Shown here: positions 7,352-21,663 of the stretch, in pieces
Numbering within the stretch: the first letter of the stretch is position 1
How the letters are laid out: each line of letters opens with the position of its first letter
Source: a virus
Reading direction: 5' to 3' (one strand)
Length of the DNA stretch: 34,110 bases
IMG/VR virus record: IMGVR_UViG_3300032117_000096
The notes under the pieces: model-generated
Told to the model about the DNA's origin: nothing
Databases searched by the model: none
What the model saw: only the letters and a program-made list of their open reading frames with translations
Made by a program: the position numbers and the translations under genes

Positions 7352-7851
7352 ATCTTGCCGCCAGCTTTAAGAGCTATGATAGCGTGATCGAGCATCTTAT
7401 CGAGCTCATCATCACTCTTTGTCGATAGCGTTACATCAGCGCTTATCTGCTGCTTGTCAGTCCACATCGCTAGATGCTTGCCGAGTAGCTCTGCGCCTTT
7501 TAGCACTGCGGCGGAGTCATACTTATATTCCCCCGTCACGTTGCCGTCTTTGTCTTTGACCGGCTCAGACTGCTTGCAGCGCTCAATTGTGTCTTGTATC
7601 GTAGTTAGTACGTATTCGGCTGTTATTTGCGTCGATTTTGCACGCTCTTGCTTGAGGGACTGAATCCTTGCAGTGACTATATTTTTTCTTAGCAGCTGCC
7701 ACCCTATGATCGCATGGCTTTTTTCCGAGTATCCAGCCCGCAAACTTGCTTGAGATGCGTTCAGATCGACAAGGTATTCCCTGCAAAACATTTCCTGCTT
7801 TGCAGTTAGCTTATTTCCTTGCGATGGTTTTTTTGCGCCTGGTTTGATCAT
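7348..7851 (-). CDS. terS: Terminase small subunit (Terminase_2-like)
   Basis: The sequence KLTAKQEMFCREYLVDLNASQASLRAGYSEKSHAIIGWQLLRKNIV is the classic small-terminase HTH signature. It is the first gene of the late block. Confidence 0.8.
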   Translation of the reverse strand: MIKPGAKKPSQGNKLTAKQEMFCREYLVDLNASQASLRAGYSEKSHAIIGWQLLRKNIVTARIQSLKQERAKSTQITAEYVLTTIQDTIERCKQSEPVKDKDGNVTGEYKYDSAAVLKGAELLGKHLAMWTDKQQISADVTLSTKSDDELDKMLDHAIIALKAGGKI

Positions 7852-7981
7852 GCTCTATCTTAAGCAGCGCTCGACACAATCCAAGCGACAATAATCTTTT
7901 CTCCTCTCAAAAAATATTACGCTACTTTTCCTAAAAATCTTTTATTTCTGAACATTATTTTGCATTATTTTATGTCTCAGC

Positions 7982-8011
7982 TTGCATCGTAAGAAAATAA
8001 TGTGCATATTT
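7982..8011 (+). promoter_or_regulatory. Candidate sigma70-type promoter for the plus-strand cassette
   Basis: TTGCAT (7982-7987), 17-nt spacer, CATATT (8005-8010), or TGcATATTT as an extended -10. GGAG lies at 8040-8043 and the ATG at 8051. Confidence 0.3.
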
Positions 8012-8050
8012 AATGAGTGGGTATGACAAACAACAAAACGGAGATTTAAA

Positions 8051-8425
8051 ATGACACAGACAAAACTTTACACTATACAGGATTCAGAAGAATATCCTGT
8101 ACCAACTCCAGAAGGGGATGAGTTGGTAGAAAAGCTAAATGGTCTTGACTTTAATGATTTTTTTGCGGGCAACGTTAAGCGTGAAAACGGGAAAATCATG
8201 TTTGACGGCATGCCTTTTGATTCCGTGAAGCAACTGCTTCAGTTTTGCAAAGAAAAAGGAGCTGTAATAAAAACTGTCGAGCGCGATAATCCTAAAGATT
8301 GGAGCGATGAGTTGAATATGCTTGAATATCAGGTGCGCGTAGGGGCTTCTAATTTGCCTTGGGTAGCAAAAAAACTCACAGAACAACGTGAAGAATTCTG
8401 GAAAGACCCTTCTGCACATAAATGA
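8051..8425 (+). CDS. Hypothetical protein, first gene of the IbrA/IbrB-like cassette
   Basis: 124-aa ORF with an SD (GGAG, 8 nt upstream) and an ATGA overlap with the next ORF. No family recognised. Confidence 0.6.
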   Translation: MTQTKLYTIQDSEEYPVPTPEGDELVEKLNGLDFNDFFAGNVKRENGKIMFDGMPFDSVKQLLQFCKEKGAVIKTVERDNPKDWSDELNMLEYQVRVGASNLPWVAKKLTEQREEFWKDPSAHK

Positions 8426-8799
8426 AAGCCTGCATTAAAATAGAGGCTATCGGAGAAAACATATTCCAAAGCATCGATAGGTATCGTTGCTTTGGAACAA
8501 TGGCAGATATTTTTTCAGTACCGAAATCATACTGGGTAGCAAAGATCACGGGATACTGTTCTGAGTTTGACGGATTTAAACGTGAGTTTGTTCATGGGAA
8601 TCGGGATTACGCAAAAGCTAACGGCAACGGAAGCCGCGGAATTTATGTCACTTACTTTCTTAATCCAGGACTCTATGAGGTAAAGCAAAAAACGTCATGG
8701 AAAAATACTGAAAGATACTTCTGTATGGTCACAGAAGAAGGAGAAATCATAAAGATGGACAAACCGGACATTGAGAAATGCCTACTAAAAAAGTGTTAG
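8422..8799 (+). CDS. Hypothetical protein, second gene of the cassette
   Basis: 125-aa ORF coupled on both sides. No family recognised. Confidence 0.6.
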   Translation: MKACIKIEAIGENIFQSIDRYRCFGTMADIFSVPKSYWVAKITGYCSEFDGFKREFVHGNRDYAKANGNGSRGIYVTYFLNPGLYEVKQKTSWKNTERYFCMVTEEGEIIKMDKPDIEKCLLKKC

Positions 8800-9977
8800 G
8801 GAAGAATGTTTTTGTTGCCGCAATAGACAGGGTAAATTACATCTTCGACAACTTCCCAAAGATTTATGTGAGCTTTTCTGGCGGTAAGGACAGCTCAGTA
8901 ATGACGCATATTGTTGCAAGTGAGGCGCGTAGGCGTGGGGTTAAAATCGGGCTATTATGCGTAGACCTTGAGGCGCAATACAGACTTACGATGGATCATG
9001 TAGCGGAGATGTACGAAATGTATGCGGATGTCATTGAGCCTTACTGGGTTGCATTGCCGTTAAATCTCCGCAATGCTGTATCTCAGTATATGCCGCAATG
9101 GAAGTGTTGGGATGTCGAAAAGGCAGATTCATGGGTACGGAATCCGCCAAAAATAGCAATTACTGAAACACACAAATTCCCGTTTTTCCATGACGGGATG
9201 GAGTTTGAGGAGTTCGTTCCAGCTTTTGGAAAATGGTACTCCGAAGGGAAGCCATGCGCCTGCTTTGTCGGTATACGGTCAGATGAAAGTCTTAATAGGT
9301 GGCGCACAATATCGGGCGGAAGAAAGCAGATGTCTGATGGTCATAAATGGACGACGTGGATCGGCGACAGCGTATTCAATGCTTACCCGATTTATGACTG
9401 GAAAACTGAGGATTTGTGGACGTTCTCAGGTAAAACGGGATTGCCATACAATAAACTTTACGACCGCATGTATCAAGCAGGGCTAACCCTACACCAGATG
9501 AGAATCTGCCAGCCCTACGGAGACGACCAAAGGAAAGGGCTATGGCTGTTTCATATCATCGAGCCAGAGACATGGGGTAAGGTTATTGCAAGGGTAAATG
9601 GGGCAAATCAGGGGGCTTTGTATGCCCAAGAGAGCGGAAATGTCCTTGGTAATCGGATTATCAATAAGCCCGACAATCACACGTGGAAAAGCTTTGCATT
9701 CATGCTTCTGGACTCTATGCCAGACAAGACAGGAGACCATTATAAAGACAAGATAGCTGTGTTCCTGAAATGGTATTCAGATCGTGGATATGAAAGGGGT
9801 ATCCCAGATGACGGCCCCATGGATAAATCAGCTCCATGCTGGAAAAGGGTATGCAAGGCTTTATTGCGGAATGATTATTGGTGCAAAGGATTAAGTTTTG
9901 GGCAGCACAAAAGCGAAGCTTACGAGAAGTATAAAAAGTTAATGAGAAAAAGGAGGTCGGAATGGGGGATAATATAG
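8778..9977 (+). CDS. ibrA: PP-loop ATP pyrophosphatase of the PAPS-reductase family with a long C-terminal extension (IbrA-like)
   Basis: PP-loop SFSGGKDSS (nt 8871-8897) and FVGIRSDESLNRW, with about 200 aa of extra C-terminal domain. Immediately followed by a ParB-domain gene, which is the IbrA/IbrB architecture. Confidence 0.8.
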   Translation: MPTKKVLGKNVFVAAIDRVNYIFDNFPKIYVSFSGGKDSSVMTHIVASEARRRGVKIGLLCVDLEAQYRLTMDHVAEMYEMYADVIEPYWVALPLNLRNAVSQYMPQWKCWDVEKADSWVRNPPKIAITETHKFPFFHDGMEFEEFVPAFGKWYSEGKPCACFVGIRSDESLNRWRTISGGRKQMSDGHKWTTWIGDSVFNAYPIYDWKTEDLWTFSGKTGLPYNKLYDRMYQAGLTLHQMRICQPYGDDQRKGLWLFHIIEPETWGKVIARVNGANQGALYAQESGNVLGNRIINKPDNHTWKSFAFMLLDSMPDKTGDHYKDKIAVFLKWYSDRGYERGIPDDGPMDKSAPCWKRVCKALLRNDYWCKGLSFGQHKSEAYEKYKKLMRKRRSEWGII

Positions 9978-10507
9978 CCTTAGATTTCGGTGAAGTTCCT
10001 GATTGGGTGAAAGGTCATCCTGTATCAAAGGTGCAATGGGTGCCGATTGACAAGGTGCACGCGAACGATTACAACCCTAACAGCGTCGCGCCGCCAGAAA
10101 TGAAGCTTTTGAAGCTGAGCATTGAGAATGATGGATATACTCAGCCCATTGTAGCATGGGAGACTGAAGAGGGCTTATATGAGGTTATAGACGGGTTTCA
10201 CCGGCACAAGGTCGGGCGTGATTTGGGGCTATCTCACTTGCCCGTTGTTGTGGTAAATGCCGACAGACAAGAGCGCGGTGATAGAATAGCCTCAACGATA
10301 CGACACAATAGAGCAAGAGGAAAGCACCAAGTGGGAGCAATGAGCGATATAGTACAAGAGCTATCCCGTAGGAATTGGAGCGACGCAAAGGTTGCAAAAG
10401 AGTTGGGAATGGAGCCGGATGAAGTGTTAAGATTGAAACAAGTATCTGGACTTGCTGAACTCTTTGCTGATAAAGATTTTTCCGAGGCATGGGAGGTTGA
10501 ACGATGA
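9962..10507 (+). CDS. ibrB: ParB/sulfiredoxin-like nuclease-domain protein (IbrB-like)
   Basis: VPIDKVHANDYNPNSV...YEVIDGFHRHKV...ASTIRHNRARGKH are ParB N-terminal-domain motifs. It overlaps the PAPS-reductase gene by 16 nt. Confidence 0.8.
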   Translation: MGDNIALDFGEVPDWVKGHPVSKVQWVPIDKVHANDYNPNSVAPPEMKLLKLSIENDGYTQPIVAWETEEGLYEVIDGFHRHKVGRDLGLSHLPVVVVNADRQERGDRIASTIRHNRARGKHQVGAMSDIVQELSRRNWSDAKVAKELGMEPDEVLRLKQVSGLAELFADKDFSEAWEVER

Positions 10508-10725
10508 ATTTTACCATCACGGAGGCGGAGGTAATCCGCCTCACGGGATACAGCCGGCAGCAGCTCAGGAGGCTGCGGCAAGGCTTCGCGCAAAATAAAG
10601 GAGGCAAGGAGTACGTTGCAGATCCGGTTTTGCGACAGGGCATTGACTGGCAACGTTATGGCAGGGCAGTACTCTATAATGATTGCGTTATCGGGTTACT
10701 GATGATTCGAAAAGATGGAGCGTGA
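10504..10725 (+). CDS. Small putative DNA-binding protein (HTH-like), last gene of the cassette
   Basis: 73 aa with an ATGA overlap with the previous gene. ITEAEVIRLTGYSRQQLRRLRQG looks like an AlpA/excisionase-type helix-turn-helix. Confidence 0.4.
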   Translation: MNFTITEAEVIRLTGYSRQQLRRLRQGFAQNKGGKEYVADPVLRQGIDWQRYGRAVLYNDCVIGLLMIRKDGA

Positions 10726-10785
10726 TAGCACGAAAAACATAAATTTCGAATTTAAAAATGAACCGTATGTAAAAAAGCATGCTTT

Positions 10786-11130
10786 TTAACCGGAAATAAT
10801 TTTTTTACAAAGGTTTTCGCATGCTTTTAGTTCTTCATGGAGTGCCTCAATGCTCTTTATGATCTTTCTTCTTCTGTAAAATATTTCAGCGCGATGTATC
10901 TCTTTCCGCGCCTTGATCTTTCTTGAAATATCACGGATAACATCTTCTCGTGAGCTCCCTTTCGTGATTATTTTTGCGTTATTGATTGAGCAGGTAGCAG
11001 TCCAAGAGTAGATATGAGACCTGCTTTTGATATCGCGGGTCTTTTTACCCAAGAGACAACTTTGATGTCGGTATTCGCCATTATGCTCGATAACGACGAT
11101 CTCAGTTTCAATATTAATCGTTTCAGGCAT
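10786..11130 (-). CDS. Hypothetical protein (last gene of the early block)
   Basis: 114-aa ORF convergent with the plus-strand cassette. No family recognised. Confidence 0.55.
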   Translation of the reverse strand: MPETINIETEIVVIEHNGEYRHQSCLLGKKTRDIKSRSHIYSWTATCSINNAKIITKGSSREDVIRDISRKIKARKEIHRAEIFYRRRKIIKSIEALHEELKACENLCKKIISG

Positions 11131-13810: not shown

Positions 13811-13939
13811 TTAGTTTAGAGTGTTAAAAACATCACAACCTTCTTGCATCGGAACGAGATAATAGTTGTAGAAAATCCTGTGATAAAAGCCGTTGATCGG
13901 AACGACAATCCAGTATATCCTCGTGGGAATGTCAATCAT
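13811..13939 (-). CDS. Possible micro-ORF (42 aa)
   Basis: Found by hand: MIDIPTRIYWIVVPINGFYHRIFYNYYLVPMQEGCDVFNTLN. It has an ATGA overlap with the MazG-like gene stop. Confidence 0.3.
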   Translation of the reverse strand: MIDIPTRIYWIVVPINGFYHRIFYNYYLVPMQEGCDVFNTLN

Positions 13940-14235
13940 TCTGCACATTCCTTATCGTTTATCGCTTTTTCGAGCTTAATTCTTGCCTGATTTATGTGTG
14001 CTGAAGCATCAAAACCTTGAATATCTCTCTCAAAAAGCCATATCTTTTGTACTCGCTGAAAGACAAACAACACATCATTAAGCTCCTTAATCACAGACAA
14101 AGCATCACCTTTACCTTGCGCATATCGCTGCACTGCAAAGTGTAATTCACCCGTCTCTTCCTGGAGTTTATGGATAGCTTCTGAAGGGCCGAGAATTGAT
14201 ATCGCGCGCTCATGAATAGTTTCGTCTTGCTTCAT
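13936..14235 (-). CDS. MazG-like nucleotide pyrophosphohydrolase-family protein
   Basis: 99 aa. KLQEETGELHFAVQRY...IKELNDVLFVF fits the EExxE...ExxD metal-binding pattern of small phage MazG proteins. Confidence 0.5.
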   Translation of the reverse strand: MKQDETIHERAISILGPSEAIHKLQEETGELHFAVQRYAQGKGDALSVIKELNDVLFVFQRVQKIWLFERDIQGFDASAHINQARIKLEKAINDKECAE

Positions 14236-16069: not shown

Positions 16070-16600
16070 TCATCTTATAGTGAGGGAGTTTTTTGAAGTC
16101 ACTTCTATGTATTCCGGAACATCAAAACCCTTATTAAACTCTTTTATTGCCGAAATCGACGGTTTGAAAACAAACTCAGCAAGTTTATTCGATACTAGGT
16201 ACTTTTGCGTAAGATTATTAATGTCATCTTTAACCTTCCAACTGTCCGTTACCCTAACTGAATAGTTGTGCTTTAATGTCTTAACCTTTGTCTCTCCGAG
16301 CTCAATCATTGCTTGCAATACCCGTTCACGCGCCGAATCAGAAGCGTTTATCATCGTTTTTGCTCTCTTAGTGTACTCTTCTGCCAGTCCTTTTAAGTAT
16401 TCCGCTTGACCCTTGCAGTAACCTATCCACTCGGTATATGCATCAAGTTTATCCTTAAGGGAGGTTTCGTTATCCTCTATCAGTTCGATAATCTCAACAG
16501 TCAATTCACCGCCAGCATCAAAAAGTAATTCTTCCGCAAGGTGGTGGCGCATTACGATTGAATTGAGCGTTCGTTTTTCCTGTGGTTGTTGGTTTTCCAT
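16070..16600 (-). CDS. Siphovirus Gp157-like protein
   Basis: The layout is a coiled-coil centre followed by ...KVKTLKHNYSVRVTDSWKV...VPEYIEVTSKNSLTIR, which matches the Gp157 family often found next to ERF/RecT. The ORF is open to 16678. The ATG at 16600 (MENQQPQEK) avoids an overlap with the repeat gene. Confidence 0.6.
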   Translation of the reverse strand: MENQQPQEKRTLNSIVMRHHLAEELLFDAGGELTVEIIELIEDNETSLKDKLDAYTEWIGYCKGQAEYLKGLAEEYTKRAKTMINASDSARERVLQAMIELGETKVKTLKHNYSVRVTDSWKVKDDINNLTQKYLVSNKLAEFVFKPSISAIKEFNKGFDVPEYIEVTSKNSLTIR

Positions 16601-16661
16601 TTTTTCCGTATTATTTATTGTTGATGTTGTTTCTATGAGTCTGTTGCTTGAATCAGCAGGC

Positions 16662-17276
16662 TCATGGCTTTTCCTCATCGCCTACATCTCCGATATTGAG
16701 GCATCCAAGCGTTTTAACCTGCAATCCAAGCTGAGACTGTAGTCTCTGCTCATTTGCCTTTTTAAGGTTCTCAGCATTCCATTTGCGTTGATACTCTCTT
16801 ACCTTTTCAGGGTTCTCAGCCCTCCATTTGCGTTGATTCTCTCTTGCCTTTTCAGGGTTCTCAGCATTCCATTTGCGTTGATTCTCTCTTGCCTTTTCAG
16901 GGTTCTCAGCATTCCATTTGCGTTGATACTCTCTTACCTTTTCAGGGTTCTCAGCCCTCCATTTGCGTTGATACTCTCTTACCTTTTCAGGGTTCTCAGC
17001 CCACCATTTGCGTTGCTTCTCTCTTGCCTTTTCAGGGTTCTCAGCCCTCCATTTGCGTTGATACTCTCTTGCCTTTTCAGGGTTCTCAGCCCTCTGTTTG
17101 CGTTGCTGCTCATTTACCTTTTCAAGGTTCTCAGCCATCCATTTGCGTTGATACTCTCTTACCTTTTCAGGGTTCTCAGCCCTCCATTTGCGTTCCTTCT
17201 CATTTACCTTTTCAAGGTTCGCAGCTCTCCACTTACGTTGATACTCCCGCTTTCGCTCCCGTTGCTCTTCAGTCAT
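16662..17276 (-). CDS. Tandem-repeat protein: eleven 15-aa repeats, consensus ENPEKVREYQRKWRA
   Basis: 204-aa ORF. Almost the whole protein is periodic, with Pro, Trp and Tyr at fixed positions and K/R/E rich. A short non-repeat C-terminal tail follows. Confidence 0.7.
   Translation of the reverse strand: MTEEQRERKREYQRKWRAANLEKVNEKERKWRAENPEKVREYQRKWMAENLEKVNEQQRKQRAENPEKAREYQRKWRAENPEKAREKQRKWWAENPEKVREYQRKWRAENPEKVREYQRKWNAENPEKARENQRKWNAENPEKARENQRKWRAENPEKVREYQRKWNAENLKKANEQRLQSQLGLQVKTLGCLNIGDVGDEEKP
16745..17270. repeat. 45-bp tandem repeat array, about 11.5 copies
   Basis: The anchor ccatttgcgttg recurs at 16779, 16824, 16869, 16914, 16959, 17004, 17049, (17094 variant), 17139, 17184 and (17229 variant), an exact 45-bp period. 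Confidence 0.95.
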
Positions 17277-18132: not shown

Positions 18133-18390
18133 TTATACATCGCCAGAGCCAGACCCATTGCCATCGCCATAGCCTTTGCCATCGCCAGAGCCATTGCCAT
18201 TGCCTTCGCCATCGCCAGAGCCTTCGCCATAGCCTTCGCCATAGCCTTCGCCAGAGCCAGACCCATTGCCATCGCCATAGCCTTTGCCATCGCCAGAGCC
18301 ATAGCCAGAGCCATCGCCATCGCCAGAGCCATAGCCAGAGCCATCGCCAGAGCCATCGCCATCGCCATAGCCATAGTTTATACCGTCCAT
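18133..18390 (-). CDS. Acidic (Gly-X)n low-complexity protein, 85 aa
   Basis: The sequence MDGINYGYGDGDGSGDGSGYGSGDG...GSGSGDV has Gly at every second position, with X = D/S/Y/E/N/K. This frame has a good SD (GAGGtggcggaATG) and overlaps the end of the upstream gene by 13 nt. Confidence 0.5.
   Translation of the reverse strand: MDGINYGYGDGDGSGDGSGYGSGDGDGSGYGSGDGKGYGDGNGSGSGEGYGEGYGEGSGDGEGNGNGSGDGKGYGDGNGSGSGDV
18136..18375. repeat. Hexanucleotide-periodic tract (gccatN/gccagN units) containing a longer internal duplication
   Basis: The tract consists of gccagagcc / gccatcgcc / gccatagcc units. The segment gccagagccagacccattgccatcgccatagcctttgccatcgccagagcc occurs twice (about 18141 and about 18249, 108 bp apart). 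Confidence 0.9.
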
Positions 18391-18722
18391 TCCGCCACCT
18401 CATTTAATGATTTCAAAGCGATATGAGATAGTGGTATAATCTCTATCGCTTGGGTTAGGATTATTGACTTTACCGTCAAAGATATCCGGCTTTCTTTGAC
18501 GTTTTTCAGCCCTTTTTCAGCTATGTCGGACAGTGTATTTGCCCCGTTCCACGACCATATTCGGCGAGCGTTATTTAACTCCACTTCCATCCCGTCATGC
18601 CTGACTAGTTCGCCAAAATGCACGCCAGCCGAATAAGTGCGTATCAATACGTGCTTAGCCGATTCCGTCGGTGGAATCTTTTTTGTGTAAATTTCCCCAT
18701 TAATCGTGATTTCATTTGACAT
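18378..18722 (-). CDS. Conserved phage protein of unknown function
   Basis: 114 aa. The motif VLIRTYSAGVHFGEL...LNNARRIWSWNGANTLSDIA recalls a widespread phage family that I cannot name with certainty. Confidence 0.55.
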   Translation of the reverse strand: MSNEITINGEIYTKKIPPTESAKHVLIRTYSAGVHFGELVRHDGMEVELNNARRIWSWNGANTLSDIAEKGLKNVKESRISLTVKSIILTQAIEIIPLSHIALKSLNEVAEWTV

Positions 18723-19863: not shown

Positions 19864-19912
19864 TATGCGCCTATCCTTAACGTACCCGATAAACAAGTTA
19901 AGGCAGCGCATA
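19864..19912. other. Long imperfect hairpin in a non-coding region
   Basis: TATGCGC pairs with GCGCATA (19864-19870 with 19906-19912) and CCTTAAC pairs with GTTAAGG (19875-19881 with 19897-19903). That gives 14 bp in two helices with a 15-nt apical loop. Confidence 0.4.
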
Positions 19913-20178
19913 TATAACCGGCTTCTTGAGCTTGTCCAGATAATCAGACCATTCCTGCATCATCCTTTCAGCGCGGGTAACGGTTTGCCATCGGCAGTAT
20001 ATTTTTGTGGAGCGATCAAGAGGAAAAGACCGCCACCATCAAAAAGCGATTGCGCTTTATCGGTTGGCCTGGTTGTCTTTTGTCGGGGTTGCGGGAACCT
20101 ATGAATTAATACTGAAGGAACCTTGCGGAGCATGTCAATAAAAGTATACCTAAAGCTATACTTAATAATGTTATCATC

Positions 20179-20905: not shown

Positions 20906-21325
20906 TTATTCAGGCAGGGTTTTCCCTGCTTGAAAATCTCTTAATGACAGACCGCCTGTAAACTGAAAATGCGGCTTTTCTGGAAAGCTCTTCCAATCTC
21001 CGGCCCACTCAAGGCCGCAAGATTTCCCGATGTGGCCGATGCTTAGCCATACCTGCATGTCGTCCCATACCGGCTTACCACAAATCACCGGAACGGTATC
21101 AAATGCGACGTGGTACTGGTGGAAACTTTGGCCTCCACGGGCATTTGTTACAATGTGTCCAGGGGTGGTTCTTCCCTGGGCATAAAGAGCGTTCTGGATC
21201 TCGATATCCCTGTAAGTGCTGGTAATCAGGATATCAATTCCTGACTTCTTGCACTCATCGAGAAACTTCTCGCAAAGTGGCTGCACTTTTATGTGCAGGT
21301 CGCTGATGTTTCGGCTGTTTATCAT
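20906..21325 (-). CDS. Endolysin, peptidase M15 (VanY / L-Ala-D-Glu peptidase-like)
   Basis: ILITSTYRDIEIQNALYAQGR...GGQSFHQYHVAFD...GLEWAGDW...EKPHFQF are the zinc-peptidase M15 motifs. The ATG at 21325 is ATGA-coupled to the upstream gene (the ORF is open to 21370). Confidence 0.85.
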   Translation of the reverse strand: MINSRNISDLHIKVQPLCEKFLDECKKSGIDILITSTYRDIEIQNALYAQGRTTPGHIVTNARGGQSFHQYHVAFDTVPVICGKPVWDDMQVWLSIGHIGKSCGLEWAGDWKSFPEKPHFQFTGGLSLRDFQAGKTLPE

Positions 21326-21663
21326 GATGCTTCGTTTGTTCTTGGGTTTAACCTTTTTAGCAATGCACACCCTTCTGCATGTTTCAGTTCGATTGTCCTG
21401 ATACGATCAAAGACTTCGCTAAGACTTTTATCAAGGTTCTCTTTCAGCAAAGACTGGTTATCGCTGATCTGCTTTACTGTTTGCGTTACTGTGCTGAGAG
21501 ACTTCGTGATATCCGCTTCTTTTAGAGAAACTTTCAACTCTGCGTTTTCTTTGTTAAGAGCGAATCCCATTTTTGCATAGTAAGCGGCAATTCCTGCCAG
21601 AAGAAGAACCGATGTTGTACCTATTGCGACAAAATCCGAGAAATCAACCTGAGTTATCTGCAT
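21322..21663 (-). CDS. Single-TM protein with coiled-coil tail (holin candidate)
   Basis: The ATG at 21663 gives MQITQVDFSDFVAIGTTSVLLLAGIAAYYAKMG followed by a helical tail. It lies immediately upstream of the endolysin. The ORF is open to 21780, but that would overlap the previous gene. Confidence 0.45.
   Translation of the reverse strand: MQITQVDFSDFVAIGTTSVLLLAGIAAYYAKMGFALNKENAELKVSLKEADITKSLSTVTQTVKQISDNQSLLKENLDKSLSEVFDRIRTIELKHAEGCALLKRLNPRTNEAS

What the first reader, a model, noticed from the sequence alone, without database searches (positions are those of the whole stretch)
8051..10725. Five-gene plus-strand cassette built around an IbrA/IbrB-like PAPS-reductase + ParB pair: candidate DNA-modification or anti-defence module
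This is the only long plus-strand unit in a genome otherwise read leftwards. It sits between terS and the end of the early block and has its own promoter-like site (TTGCAT-17-CATATT). All four gene junctions overlap (ATGA at 8422 and 10504; 22-nt and 16-nt overlaps), so it looks like one translationally coupled operon. ORF3 carries the PP-loop SFSGGKDS and GIRSDES motifs of the PAPS-reductase / DndC / SspD ATP-pyrophosphatase superfamily, plus a large extra C-terminal domain. ORF4 is a ParB/sulfiredoxin-type domain protein (DGFHRHKV, IRHNRARG). This pairing is the IbrA/IbrB architecture, which is known genetically from E. coli prophage Eib expression but, as far as I know, has no defined biochemical activity. 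Related PP-loop enzymes (DndC, SspD) act on the DNA backbone, and ParB-type domains bind or nick DNA. A phage DNA-modification or counter-defence role is therefore plausible. The two upstream proteins (124 and 125 aa) and the 73-aa HTH-like protein belong to no family I recognise and may be the novel parts.
Basis: partly seen in the sequence, partly recalled or inferred. Interest (0 to 1): 0.75.

Follow-up and report, generated by a model that had tools for sequence, protein, structure and literature searches.

The report
Three-part IbrA/IbrB phage accessory operon
A P22-like phage carries the widespread but biochemically unexplained IbrA/IbrB gene pair, and comparison with about 170 related loci shows that the pair normally travels with a small third protein of unknown fold, here ORF2, which gives a sharper handle for working out what the system does.

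Summary
Five overlapping plus-strand genes lie at 8051-10725, between terS and the early genes of a P22-like metagenomic phage.

- **ORF3** is an IbrA-type enzyme: PAPS_reduct plus DUF3440, with an intact SGGKDS PP-loop.
- **ORF4** is its ParB/Srx-type partner IbrB, with a DGFHR motif and an HTH-like tail.

The five-gene reading is only partly right. Across 109 non-redundant IbrA loci, IbrB was adjacent in all 99 that had enough flanking DNA.

- **ORF2** belongs to a large unannotated family (about 1,100 representatives). It has a confident model with no PDB analogue. It always sits directly upstream of IbrA, overlapping it (24 clusters).
- **The same slot** is filled in 35 other clusters by an unrelated helical protein ("X0"), which is fused to IbrB in five more.
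- **ORF1** follows the cassette only in close relatives.
- **ORF5** is an independent MerR/excisionase-like gene that is also found beside integrases without IbrAB.
- **The proposed promoter** is no better than chance.

My best reading is a three-component, ATP-dependent system that modifies nucleic acid, probably DNA, with an anti-defence or regulatory role. That function is inferred, not shown. CysH, DndC and partition-ParB membership all fail. I rate it a new variant of a known, uncharacterised kind.

The parts
7982..8010 (+). Promoter-like site TTGCAT-17-CATATT in the 199-bp divergent intergenic region between terS and ORF1. It is weak and not distinguishable from chance.
   Evidence: The sequence was read and matches the consensus at 7 of 12 positions. 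The scan does not report it and finds 7 sites against 7.8 +/- 3.0 in shuffles. A GGAG Shine-Dalgarno sequence lies at 8040-8043, 7 nt before the ATG at 8051.
8051..8425 (+). ORF1, 124 aa, a lineage-specific accessory protein of unknown function. Its C-terminal ~80 aa are conserved and its N-terminus is variable.
   Evidence: No Pfam, PHROG, NCBIfam or PADLOC family; the CYTH hit at E=0.022 is below cut-off. Only 7 homologue clusters were found. The homologues P0013 and P0012 lie in the same ORF1-ORF2-IbrA-IbrB order. ORF1 is absent from all more distant IbrA loci.
8422..8799 (+). ORF2, 125 aa, a member of the 'X2' family. It is the conserved third component of this IbrAB subtype and always lies directly upstream of IbrA, overlapping it.
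   Evidence: A profile search found 1,097 representatives at E<=1e-3 and 787 at E<=1e-10. It is adjacent to IbrA in 24 non-redundant clusters, in 10 of 10 loci retrieved through ORF2 itself, and in 3 of 3 arbitrarily chosen divergent representatives. The AF2 model has pLDDT 92.5 and no significant PDB analogue (best E 0.15). The only BFVD matches are uncharacterised viral proteins. Relatives hit phrog_26647, 'unknown function'. Conserved residues are D62, Y63, N67, G70, R72, G73, Y85 and W93.
8778..9977 (+). IbrA-type enzyme, 399 aa: an N-terminal PP-loop ATP-pyrophosphatase domain of the PAPS-reductase superfamily (residues ~29-233) and a C-terminal DUF3440 domain (~235-399).
   Evidence: Pfam and PHROG hits. 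It is 48% identical to the annotated IbrA of Escherichia phage PhiR5_2. Invariant or near-invariant in 122 homologues: S32, S34, G36, K37, D38, S39, D63, E65, R167, E170, S171, D207, R242 and C244 (117 of 122); there is no conserved Cys cluster. No solved structure covers DUF3440.
9962..10507 (+). IbrB-type partner, 181 aa: a ParB/Srx-fold N-terminal domain (23-103) with a DGFHR P-motif, the conserved TIRHNRARG motif, and a C-terminal HTH-like segment (~123-160).
   Evidence: ParB_N at 4e-10 and phrog_2159 at 3e-67; phrog_769 (repressor HTH) gives a weak hit at residues 123-155. DGFHR aligns with GERR of Noc and with DGVHR of the kinase SbnI. IbrB is adjacent to IbrA in 99 of 99 non-redundant loci with adequate flanks. 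Conserved residues are listed.
10504..10725 (+). ORF5, 73 aa, a small protein that is probably a MerR/excisionase-like winged-helix DNA binder. It is co-transcribed here but is not a system component.
   Evidence: 15 homologue clusters. The homologues P0028 and P0026 sit downstream of integrases or after an Sf6-type terS with no IbrAB nearby. The AF2 model has pLDDT 91.3 with topology beta-alpha-alpha-beta-beta-beta-beta-alpha. Foldseek hits are not significant (E>1), but the best-superposing ones are MerR-type domains (CarH, GlnR/TnrA, BmrR, SoxR) and the GIsul2 excisionase.

Best explanation
The cassette is an accessory operon of a P22-like phage. It is built around a three-component IbrAB-type system: ORF2 (X2 family), IbrA and IbrB.

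Shown here: IbrA keeps every residue of a working PP-loop ATP pyrophosphatase and carries the family-specific DUF3440 domain. IbrB is a ParB/Srx-fold protein of the 'DGxHR' type with an HTH-like tail. The two genes are inseparable across phyla. A small third protein occupies the slot directly upstream of IbrA: X2 here, and the unrelated X0 elsewhere, where it is sometimes fused to IbrB.

Inferred: IbrB binds DNA and a nucleotide and brings IbrA to its target. IbrA uses ATP to adenylate, and so activate, a position on a nucleic acid, most likely phage or host DNA, for addition of a group. The near-invariant Cys244 may act as nucleophile or group carrier. The small subunit acts as an interchangeable adaptor, specificity factor or regulator bound to IbrB. 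The biological pay-off is most likely escape from host DNA-targeting defences. The altered gene expression reported genetically for E. coli IbrAB would then be a secondary consequence. ORF1 and ORF5 are lineage-specific passengers.
For: Family identity.

Obligate pairing: 99 of 99 non-redundant loci with flanks, in both gene orders (72 with IbrB downstream, 27 upstream). These span many bacterial phyla and Asgard archaeal contigs.

Intact catalytic motifs.

Third component: X2 in 24 clusters; X0 in 35, plus 5 IbrB-X0 fusions with X0 at residues ~235-375. X2 linkage was confirmed from the X2 side.

DNA-directed precedent for ParB-like partners of modification enzymes: 5mYOX-ParB (PMC13229309); DpdA-DpdB and DndC-DndB (PMC12839542; PMC10853773). 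IbrB's ParB domain also matches ParB-methyltransferase fusion families (phrog_498; PADLOC MTase_II).

Position in the phage: the cassette sits in a variable slot between the early genes and terS. PMC13551039 notes that phage PAPS-reductase genes cluster in variable, anti-defence-rich regions and cites a phage PAPS reductase that helps evade Dnd.
Against: No modification, substrate or phenotype has been measured for any IbrA-type protein in the literature I could search.

Most PP-loop enzymes act on tRNA or small molecules, so DNA as the target rests on the ParB/HTH partner alone.

The only published phenotype for IbrAB, as relayed by PMC6008420, is activation of prophage eib genes. A purely regulatory role could explain that.

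The role of X2 is inferred from position, and from fusions seen only for the unrelated X0.

No sulfur- or group-donor gene lies in the operon.

The phage PAPS reductase linked to Dnd evasion was not shown to be of the IbrA/DUF3440 subtype, and no Vibrio phage appeared in the listed rows or organism tallies of the two IbrA-type tblastn searches.
Confidence: 0.42

Rival explanations
1. IbrA/IbrB is a transcription regulatory device, a 'co-activator of prophage gene expression'. IbrB would act as a ParB-like, nucleotide-dependent DNA-binding activator or anti-silencer. IbrA would be an ATP-binding cofactor, and nothing would be covalently modified.
For: This is the only genetic phenotype attached to the family and the source of its name (annotation; PMC6008420 citing Sandt 2002). 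IbrB has an HTH-like tail. ParB-like proteins such as KorB and BisD regulate transcription (titles and abstracts listed).
Against: Every catalytic residue of the PP-loop enzyme is invariant across 122 divergent homologues, including a single near-invariant Cys. That is hard to explain for a non-enzymatic cofactor. The pair occurs in phages of unrelated hosts, including archaea, where a shared promoter target is unlikely. Activation of prophage genes could be a downstream effect of DNA modification or damage.
Confidence: 0.2
2. The system modifies RNA, for example host or phage tRNA, as most PP-loop ATPases do (TilS, TtcA, MnmA, ThiI). The effect would be to reprogram translation or to evade tRNA-targeting defences.
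For: IbrA gives weak profile similarity to TtcA and TilS PP-loop regions. The PP-loop superfamily is dominated by tRNA-modifying enzymes (established knowledge).
Against: The obligate partner is a ParB/HTH protein, a class tied to DNA. No tRNA genes or RNA families occur in the window. The matches to tRNA enzymes cover only the generic PP-loop and lie far below their cut-offs.
Confidence: 0.12
3. The system acts on free nucleotides or signalling molecules. IbrA would be an ATP pyrophosphatase or adenylyltransferase and IbrB a Srx/SbnI-like ATP-using phosphotransferase. Together they would drain or alter pools used by host immunity.
For: IbrB carries the DGxHR motif shared with the kinase SbnI rather than GERR of the CTP clamps. 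ParB/Srx proteins can be enzymes (PMC12704722). Members of the PAPS-reductase fold include the adenylyltransferases CysD and FAD synthase.
Against: The conserved HTH-like tail of IbrB and the large DUF3440 domain are not explained. No signalling-system neighbours are seen.
Confidence: 0.1
4. ORF3 is an ordinary auxiliary metabolic gene, a CysH-type PAPS reductase for sulfur assimilation, and ORF4 is a plasmid-type partition ParB.
For: This is how PHROG and GenBank commonly annotate these genes: 'phosphoadenosine phosphosulfate reductase' and 'ParB-like partition protein'.
Against: CysH models score 35.5 against a cut-off of 254 bits and 27.7 against 165. No ECGLH catalytic tail is present (sequence). 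A full SGGKDS PP-loop and DUF3440 are present instead. The partition ParB model scores 31.5 against 58.45 bits. No ParA gene is present.
Confidence: 0.03

Closest known systems
[quoted passage not shown]
   Same: The domain architecture matches: PAPS_reduct + DUF3440, followed by an overlapping ParB_N gene. IbrA is 48% identical and IbrB scores 7e-56.
   Different: The E. coli-type locus examined has no small gene directly upstream of IbrA. The window's version has the conserved X2 protein, plus ORF1 and ORF5. It sits in a P22-like phage that shows no integrase in the 34-kb window.
DndC-DndB of the DNA phosphorothioation system (and BrxP of type 4 BREX)
   Same: A PAPS-reductase-superfamily PP-loop enzyme is paired with a ParB-superfamily protein in a DNA-modification context (PMC10853773; PMC12839542). 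PADLOC gives weak hits to DndC and BrxP.
   Different: The score is far below the DndC cut-off. IbrA has no conserved cysteine dyad or cluster. There are no DndA/D/E or PglZ/BrxC neighbours. DUF3440 is present in place of the DndC or BrxP C-terminal elements.
ParB-dependent phage thymine dioxygenases (5mYOX-ParB) and DpdA-DpdB
   Same: A phage or mobile-element DNA-modifying enzyme needs a cognate orphan ParB-like partner encoded next to it (PMC13229309; PMC12839542).
   Different: The catalytic partner belongs to an unrelated enzyme class. [quoted passage not shown] IbrAB also has a third small subunit.
SbnI/SerK/sulfiredoxin branch of the ParB fold
   Same: IbrB's DGFHR aligns with DGVHR of SbnI. 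NCBIfam SbnI hits at 4.7e-06.
   Different: Similarity is confined to the N-terminal fold. The score is far below cut-off (26 against 350 bits), and the context is different.

Membership tests
IbrA family (PAPS_reduct + DUF3440) | Both Pfam domains above gathering score, in that order | tested here: met
   PAPS_reduct scores 54.3 bits against a cut-off of 22.5 (residues 29-233). DUF3440 scores 117.8 bits against 25 (from residue 235). phrog_2302 hits at 4e-80.
IbrA family (PAPS_reduct + DUF3440) | An adjacent, co-oriented ParB-domain (IbrB) gene | tested here: met
   ORF4 overlaps ORF3 by 16 nt. Adjacency holds in 99 of 99 non-redundant loci with flanks.
IbrA family (PAPS_reduct + DUF3440) | Activation of prophage eib-type gene expression, the phenotype that named the family | not testable with these tools
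   This is a genetic phenotype reported for E. coli only (PMC6008420 citing Sandt 2002).
IbrB family | ParB N-terminal domain with the conserved DGxHR and RHNRARG motifs, and similarity to an annotated IbrB | tested here: met
   ParB_N scores 40 bits against 26.3. phrog_2159 hits at 3e-67. The annotated IbrB in L003 scores 7e-56. The motifs are conserved in 131 homologues.
CysH PAPS/APS reductase (sulfur assimilation) | Equivalog-level HMM score and a C-terminal ECGLH catalytic cysteine motif | tested here: not met
   TIGR02057 scores 35.5 against 254.2 bits, TIGR00434 scores 27.7 against 165.1, and PRK02090 scores 30.7 against 154. No ECG[LI]H occurs in the sequence.
DndC (DNA phosphorothioation) | HMM score above cut-off, the conserved cysteine dyad or cluster, and DndA/D/E neighbours | tested here: not met
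   TIGR03183 scores 15.3 against 290.4 bits. Only C244 is near-invariant. The neighbours are ORF2, IbrB and phage genes.
BrxP (type 4 BREX) | A full-length match and PglZ/BrxC/BrxL neighbours | tested here: not met
   The PADLOC BrxP hit covers only residues 14-46, the PP-loop. There are no BREX genes in the window.
Partition ParB (ParABS) | The TIGR00180 cut-off, a neighbouring ParA, and a GERRxRA box II | tested here: not met
   The score is 31.5 against 58.45 bits. There is no ParA. Box II reads DGFHRH.
MerR/excisionase-type winged helix (for ORF5) | A significant sequence or structure match to an HTH family | tested here: inconclusive
   Pfam HTH_26 hits at E=0.085. The profile search against the PDB found nothing. 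All Foldseek hits have E>1, but the best superpositions are MerR-type domains and an excisionase (TM 0.5-0.6, rmsd 3-3.8 A).

The most novel reading that the evidence does not exclude
IbrAB systems are a widespread, three-component machine of phages and mobile elements that writes a so far undescribed covalent mark on DNA. IbrA would be the ATP-dependent adenylating catalyst, with Cys244 as nucleophile. IbrB would be the DNA-bound nucleotide-binding loader. The interchangeable small subunits (X2, X0 and others) would set target or donor specificity. The product would shield phage DNA from restriction-type defences.
Probability: 0.3. Interest if true: 0.8.

Novelty: new variant of a known kind. 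Interest (0 to 1): 0.55.

Why it matters
IbrA/IbrB pairs occur in phages of very different hosts, in prophages and in Asgard archaeal elements, yet no biochemical activity is known for them. They are routinely mislabelled as sulfur-metabolism and partition genes.

This analysis shows that the pair normally works with a third small protein, drawn from at least two unrelated families, one of which is fused to IbrB in some loci. That changes how the system should be reconstituted: attempts with IbrA and IbrB alone may fail. It also supplies a defined three-gene construct (8422-10507), a list of invariant residues to mutate, and a new protein family of about 1,100 representatives with no known fold. 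If the product is a new DNA modification, it would bear on phage-host conflict and could be useful as a tool.

Tried and rejected
- **Nucleotide-level matches.** Megablast of 7800-10900 found nothing in 50,697 phage records or 5,426 E. coli genomes. The phage has no close sequenced relative.
- **Homology between X2 and X0.** hhalign gave probability 0.1%, so I treat them as unrelated.
- **Pfam, PHROG, NCBIfam and PADLOC for ORF1, ORF2 and ORF5.** No family was found. The weak CYTH (ORF1) and HTH_26 (ORF5) hits fall below cut-off and were not used.
- **Structure of IbrA with a 56-sequence alignment.** Sequence and profile searches of the PDB match only the PP-loop core.
- **Promoter and terminator scans.** Neither rose above the shuffled background. 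No terminator was found in the 60-bp gap after ORF5.
- **Long X2 proteins.** I looked for informative fusions. The C-terminal extensions have no Pfam family.
- **Literature.** Ten searches found no biochemical study of IbrA/IbrB. Sandt 2002 and Piel 2022 are not held. I therefore could not determine whether Piel's anti-Dnd phage PAPS reductase is of the IbrA type. No Vibrio phage appears in the listed rows or organism tallies of the IbrA-type hits.
- **Host assignment.** The nearest IbrA in reference genomes is only 66% identical and the hits scatter across phyla.
- **Rfam and tRNA scans of the window.** Nothing was found.
Full report
**The observation**

The window is a 34-kb contig of a P22-like podovirus. 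It carries P22-type coat and portal, Terminase_6 TerL and Terminase_2 TerS. The identical IbrA protein is on record in 66 blocks of public assemblies, on contigs up to about 34 kb. Five plus-strand ORFs lie at 8051-8425, 8422-8799, 8778-9977, 9962-10507 and 10504-10725. Their overlaps of 4, 22, 16 and 4 nt are exactly as described. Independent gene calls on public contigs give the same products.

The block is the only multi-gene plus-strand unit. GC skew inverts over it, to +0.18 to +0.20. ORF1 has a good GGAG ribosome-binding site. The proposed promoter is present in the sequence but matches the consensus at only 7 of 12 positions, and promoter-like sites in the region are no more frequent than in shuffles. 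There is no nucleotide-level relative among 50,697 phage records or complete E. coli genomes.

**What the two central genes are**

ORF3 hits PAPS_reduct (54.3 bits) and DUF3440 (117.8 bits), both above gathering scores. ORF4 hits ParB_N (40 bits). PHROGs places them in phrog_2302 (4e-80) and phrog_2159 (3e-67). ORF3 is 48% identical to the annotated IbrA of Escherichia phage PhiR5_2, whose neighbour is annotated IbrB.

ORF3 is not CysH, DndC or BrxP. Curated models score far below their cut-offs (PADLOC), there is no ECGLH tail, and no cysteine cluster is conserved. In 122 homologues the PP-loop SxSGGKDS, D63, E65, R167, E170, S171, D207 and R242 are invariant or nearly so, and C244 is the only near-invariant cysteine (117 of 122). 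No solved structure covers DUF3440.

In IbrB the box II motif reads DGFHR. It aligns with GERR of Noc and with DGVHR of the ATP-using kinase SbnI. TIRHNRARG and an HTH-like C-terminal segment are also conserved.

**How far the cassette is conserved**

I collected IbrA-encoding loci from three sources: IMG/VR (242 relatives, 80 kept), GTDB genomes (67 loci), and annotated phages. All were searched with the five window proteins and with family profiles. After collapsing IbrA at 90% identity, 109 clusters remain.

- **IbrB adjacency.** All 99 clusters with adequate flanks have IbrB adjacent: 72 downstream and 27 upstream.
- **ORF2 family (X2).** It lies directly upstream of IbrA, overlapping it, in 24 clusters.
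- **X0.** An unrelated helical family of about 128 aa occupies the same slot in 35 clusters (hhalign X2 against X0, probability 0.1%). It is fused to the C-terminus of IbrB in 5 more clusters, at residues ~235-375 of proteins 375-388 aa long.
- **Neither family (41 clusters).** These include Clostridia-type loci with a 123-aa gene coupled between IbrA and IbrB. They also include the E. coli-type locus, which has none.

Approaching from the ORF2 side gives the same answer. All 10 loci retrieved with an ORF2 profile have IbrA immediately downstream. So do three arbitrarily chosen divergent representatives.

X2 is a large family: 1,097 representatives at E<=1e-3. It has no Pfam model, and relatives hit only phrog_26647, 'unknown function'. 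Its AlphaFold model is confident (pLDDT 92.5). The model has no significant analogue in the PDB (best E 0.15, TM<0.33), and BFVD returns only uncharacterised viral relatives.

**ORF1 and ORF5**

ORF1 has only seven homologue clusters. Those with context lie in the same ORF1-ORF2-IbrA-IbrB order, so ORF1 follows the cassette only within the close lineage.

ORF5 homologues occur downstream of integrases, or after an Sf6-type terS, with no IbrAB nearby. The ORF5 model (pLDDT 91.3) superposes best on MerR-type winged-helix domains and a transposon excisionase, but below Foldseek's significance threshold. I regard ORF5 as an independent small DNA-binding gene that happens to be co-transcribed here.

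**Mechanism**

Shown:
- an intact PP-loop ATP-pyrophosphatase active site in IbrA;
- an obligate ParB/Srx-fold partner with an HTH-like tail;
- a third small subunit that is positionally fixed but evolutionarily interchangeable, and that is physically fused to IbrB in some lineages.

Inferred: PP-loop enzymes adenylate a substrate oxygen so that a nucleophile can replace it (established enzymology of the superfamily). ParB-like partners are a recurring feature of DNA-modifying systems: 5mYOX-ParB (PMC13229309), and DpdA-DpdB and DndC-DndB. IbrB's ParB domain also resembles those fused to DNA methyltransferases.

I therefore favour an ATP-dependent modification of DNA, directed by IbrB and the small adaptor and used against host defences. 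This fits the cassette's position in a variable slot. It also fits the remark in PMC13551039 that phage PAPS-reductase genes cluster in anti-defence hotspots, and its citation of a phage PAPS reductase that helps evade Dnd. I could not verify that this enzyme is IbrA-type, and no Vibrio phage appears in the listed rows or organism tallies of the two IbrA-type searches.

The main rival is the purely regulatory 'co-activator' role that gave the family its name. RNA modification and nucleotide-pool chemistry remain possible. The sulfur-metabolism and partition readings are effectively excluded.

**Comparison with what is known, and novelty**

The IbrA/IbrB pair is a known, commonly annotated but biochemically uncharacterised kind. 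It is present in 223 of 50,697 GenBank phage records. No paper in the searchable library reports its activity or a third component.

The window's version differs from the E. coli-type IbrAB locus examined (Escherichia phage PhiR5_2, L003) in having the conserved X2 subunit. I therefore rate it a new variant of a known kind. It is of moderate interest because it makes an old open question, what IbrAB does, more directly testable.

Noticed in passing
P0015 (ENA contig of 1,058 bp; relative of window 8051-9977): A 126-aa protein joins ORF1 residues 1-72 directly to the last ~53 residues of IbrA. It is either a natural deletion variant that lacks ORF2 and the catalytic part of IbrA, or an assembly chimera.
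   Followed up: partly
L009 3616-4815 (IMGVR_UViG_3300029798_000238, the closest viral relative, 92% IbrA identity): IbrA carries a single in-frame stop at codon 160, where the window has Cys160. This is a nonsense mutation or a sequencing error.
   Followed up: partly
L149-L157, L159-L164 (Clostridium and Clostridia MAG contigs): In about a dozen MAG loci the IbrA ORF is cut short after ~280-310 codons (ORF calls). Translating one of them, L150, shows a frame change after '...VNRVN'. This could be an inherited pseudogene, a shared assembly problem or a programmed frameshift. I did not resolve it.
   Followed up: partly
L087/L088, L114, L117, L119, L120: IbrB and the X0 small protein are fused into one protein of 375-388 aa (ParB_N at the N-terminus, X0 at ~235-375). 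Two of these are on contigs binned as Thorarchaeota.
   Followed up: yes
P0043, P0039, P0042, P0165 (X2 family members): P0043 has two tandem X2 domains. P0039, P0042 and P0165 carry a ~130-aa helical C-terminal extension with no Pfam family. P0039 still sits upstream of IbrA-IbrB.
   Followed up: partly
L134 6280-6651, and Streptococcus phage records: In Clostridia and Streptococcus-phage type loci a ~123-aa unannotated gene lies between IbrA and IbrB, overlapping IbrA and abutting IbrB. It is a possible third family of small subunit.
   Followed up: partly
L117, L119, L125, L146, L147, L170: IbrA-IbrB pairs occur on contigs binned as Asgard archaea (Thor-, Heimdall- and Promethearchaeota). 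This agrees with the report of IbrA/IbrB in the Heimdallarchaeal element HeimV2.
   Followed up: no
L100-L106: ORF5 homologues lie a few genes downstream of tyrosine integrases in temperate-phage-like contigs. In L106 one lies opposite an Sf6-type terminase, in the same relative position as in the window but without IbrAB.
   Followed up: yes
window 13936-14235 (-), 16070-16678 (-), 18378-18722 (-), 20906-21370 (-): Early-region genes with family hits: a weak MazG-like pyrophosphohydrolase hit (21.2 bits, just under the cut-off), Sipho_Gp157, DUF6948, and a VanY/M15 peptidase that is the likely endolysin. No integrase or repressor was detected among the window proteins scanned.
   Followed up: no
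window 19865-20104 (+): A 79-aa plus-strand ORF lies in a stretch where minus-strand ORFs are short and sparse. It has no Pfam family and could be a second, small plus-strand gene.
   Followed up: partly
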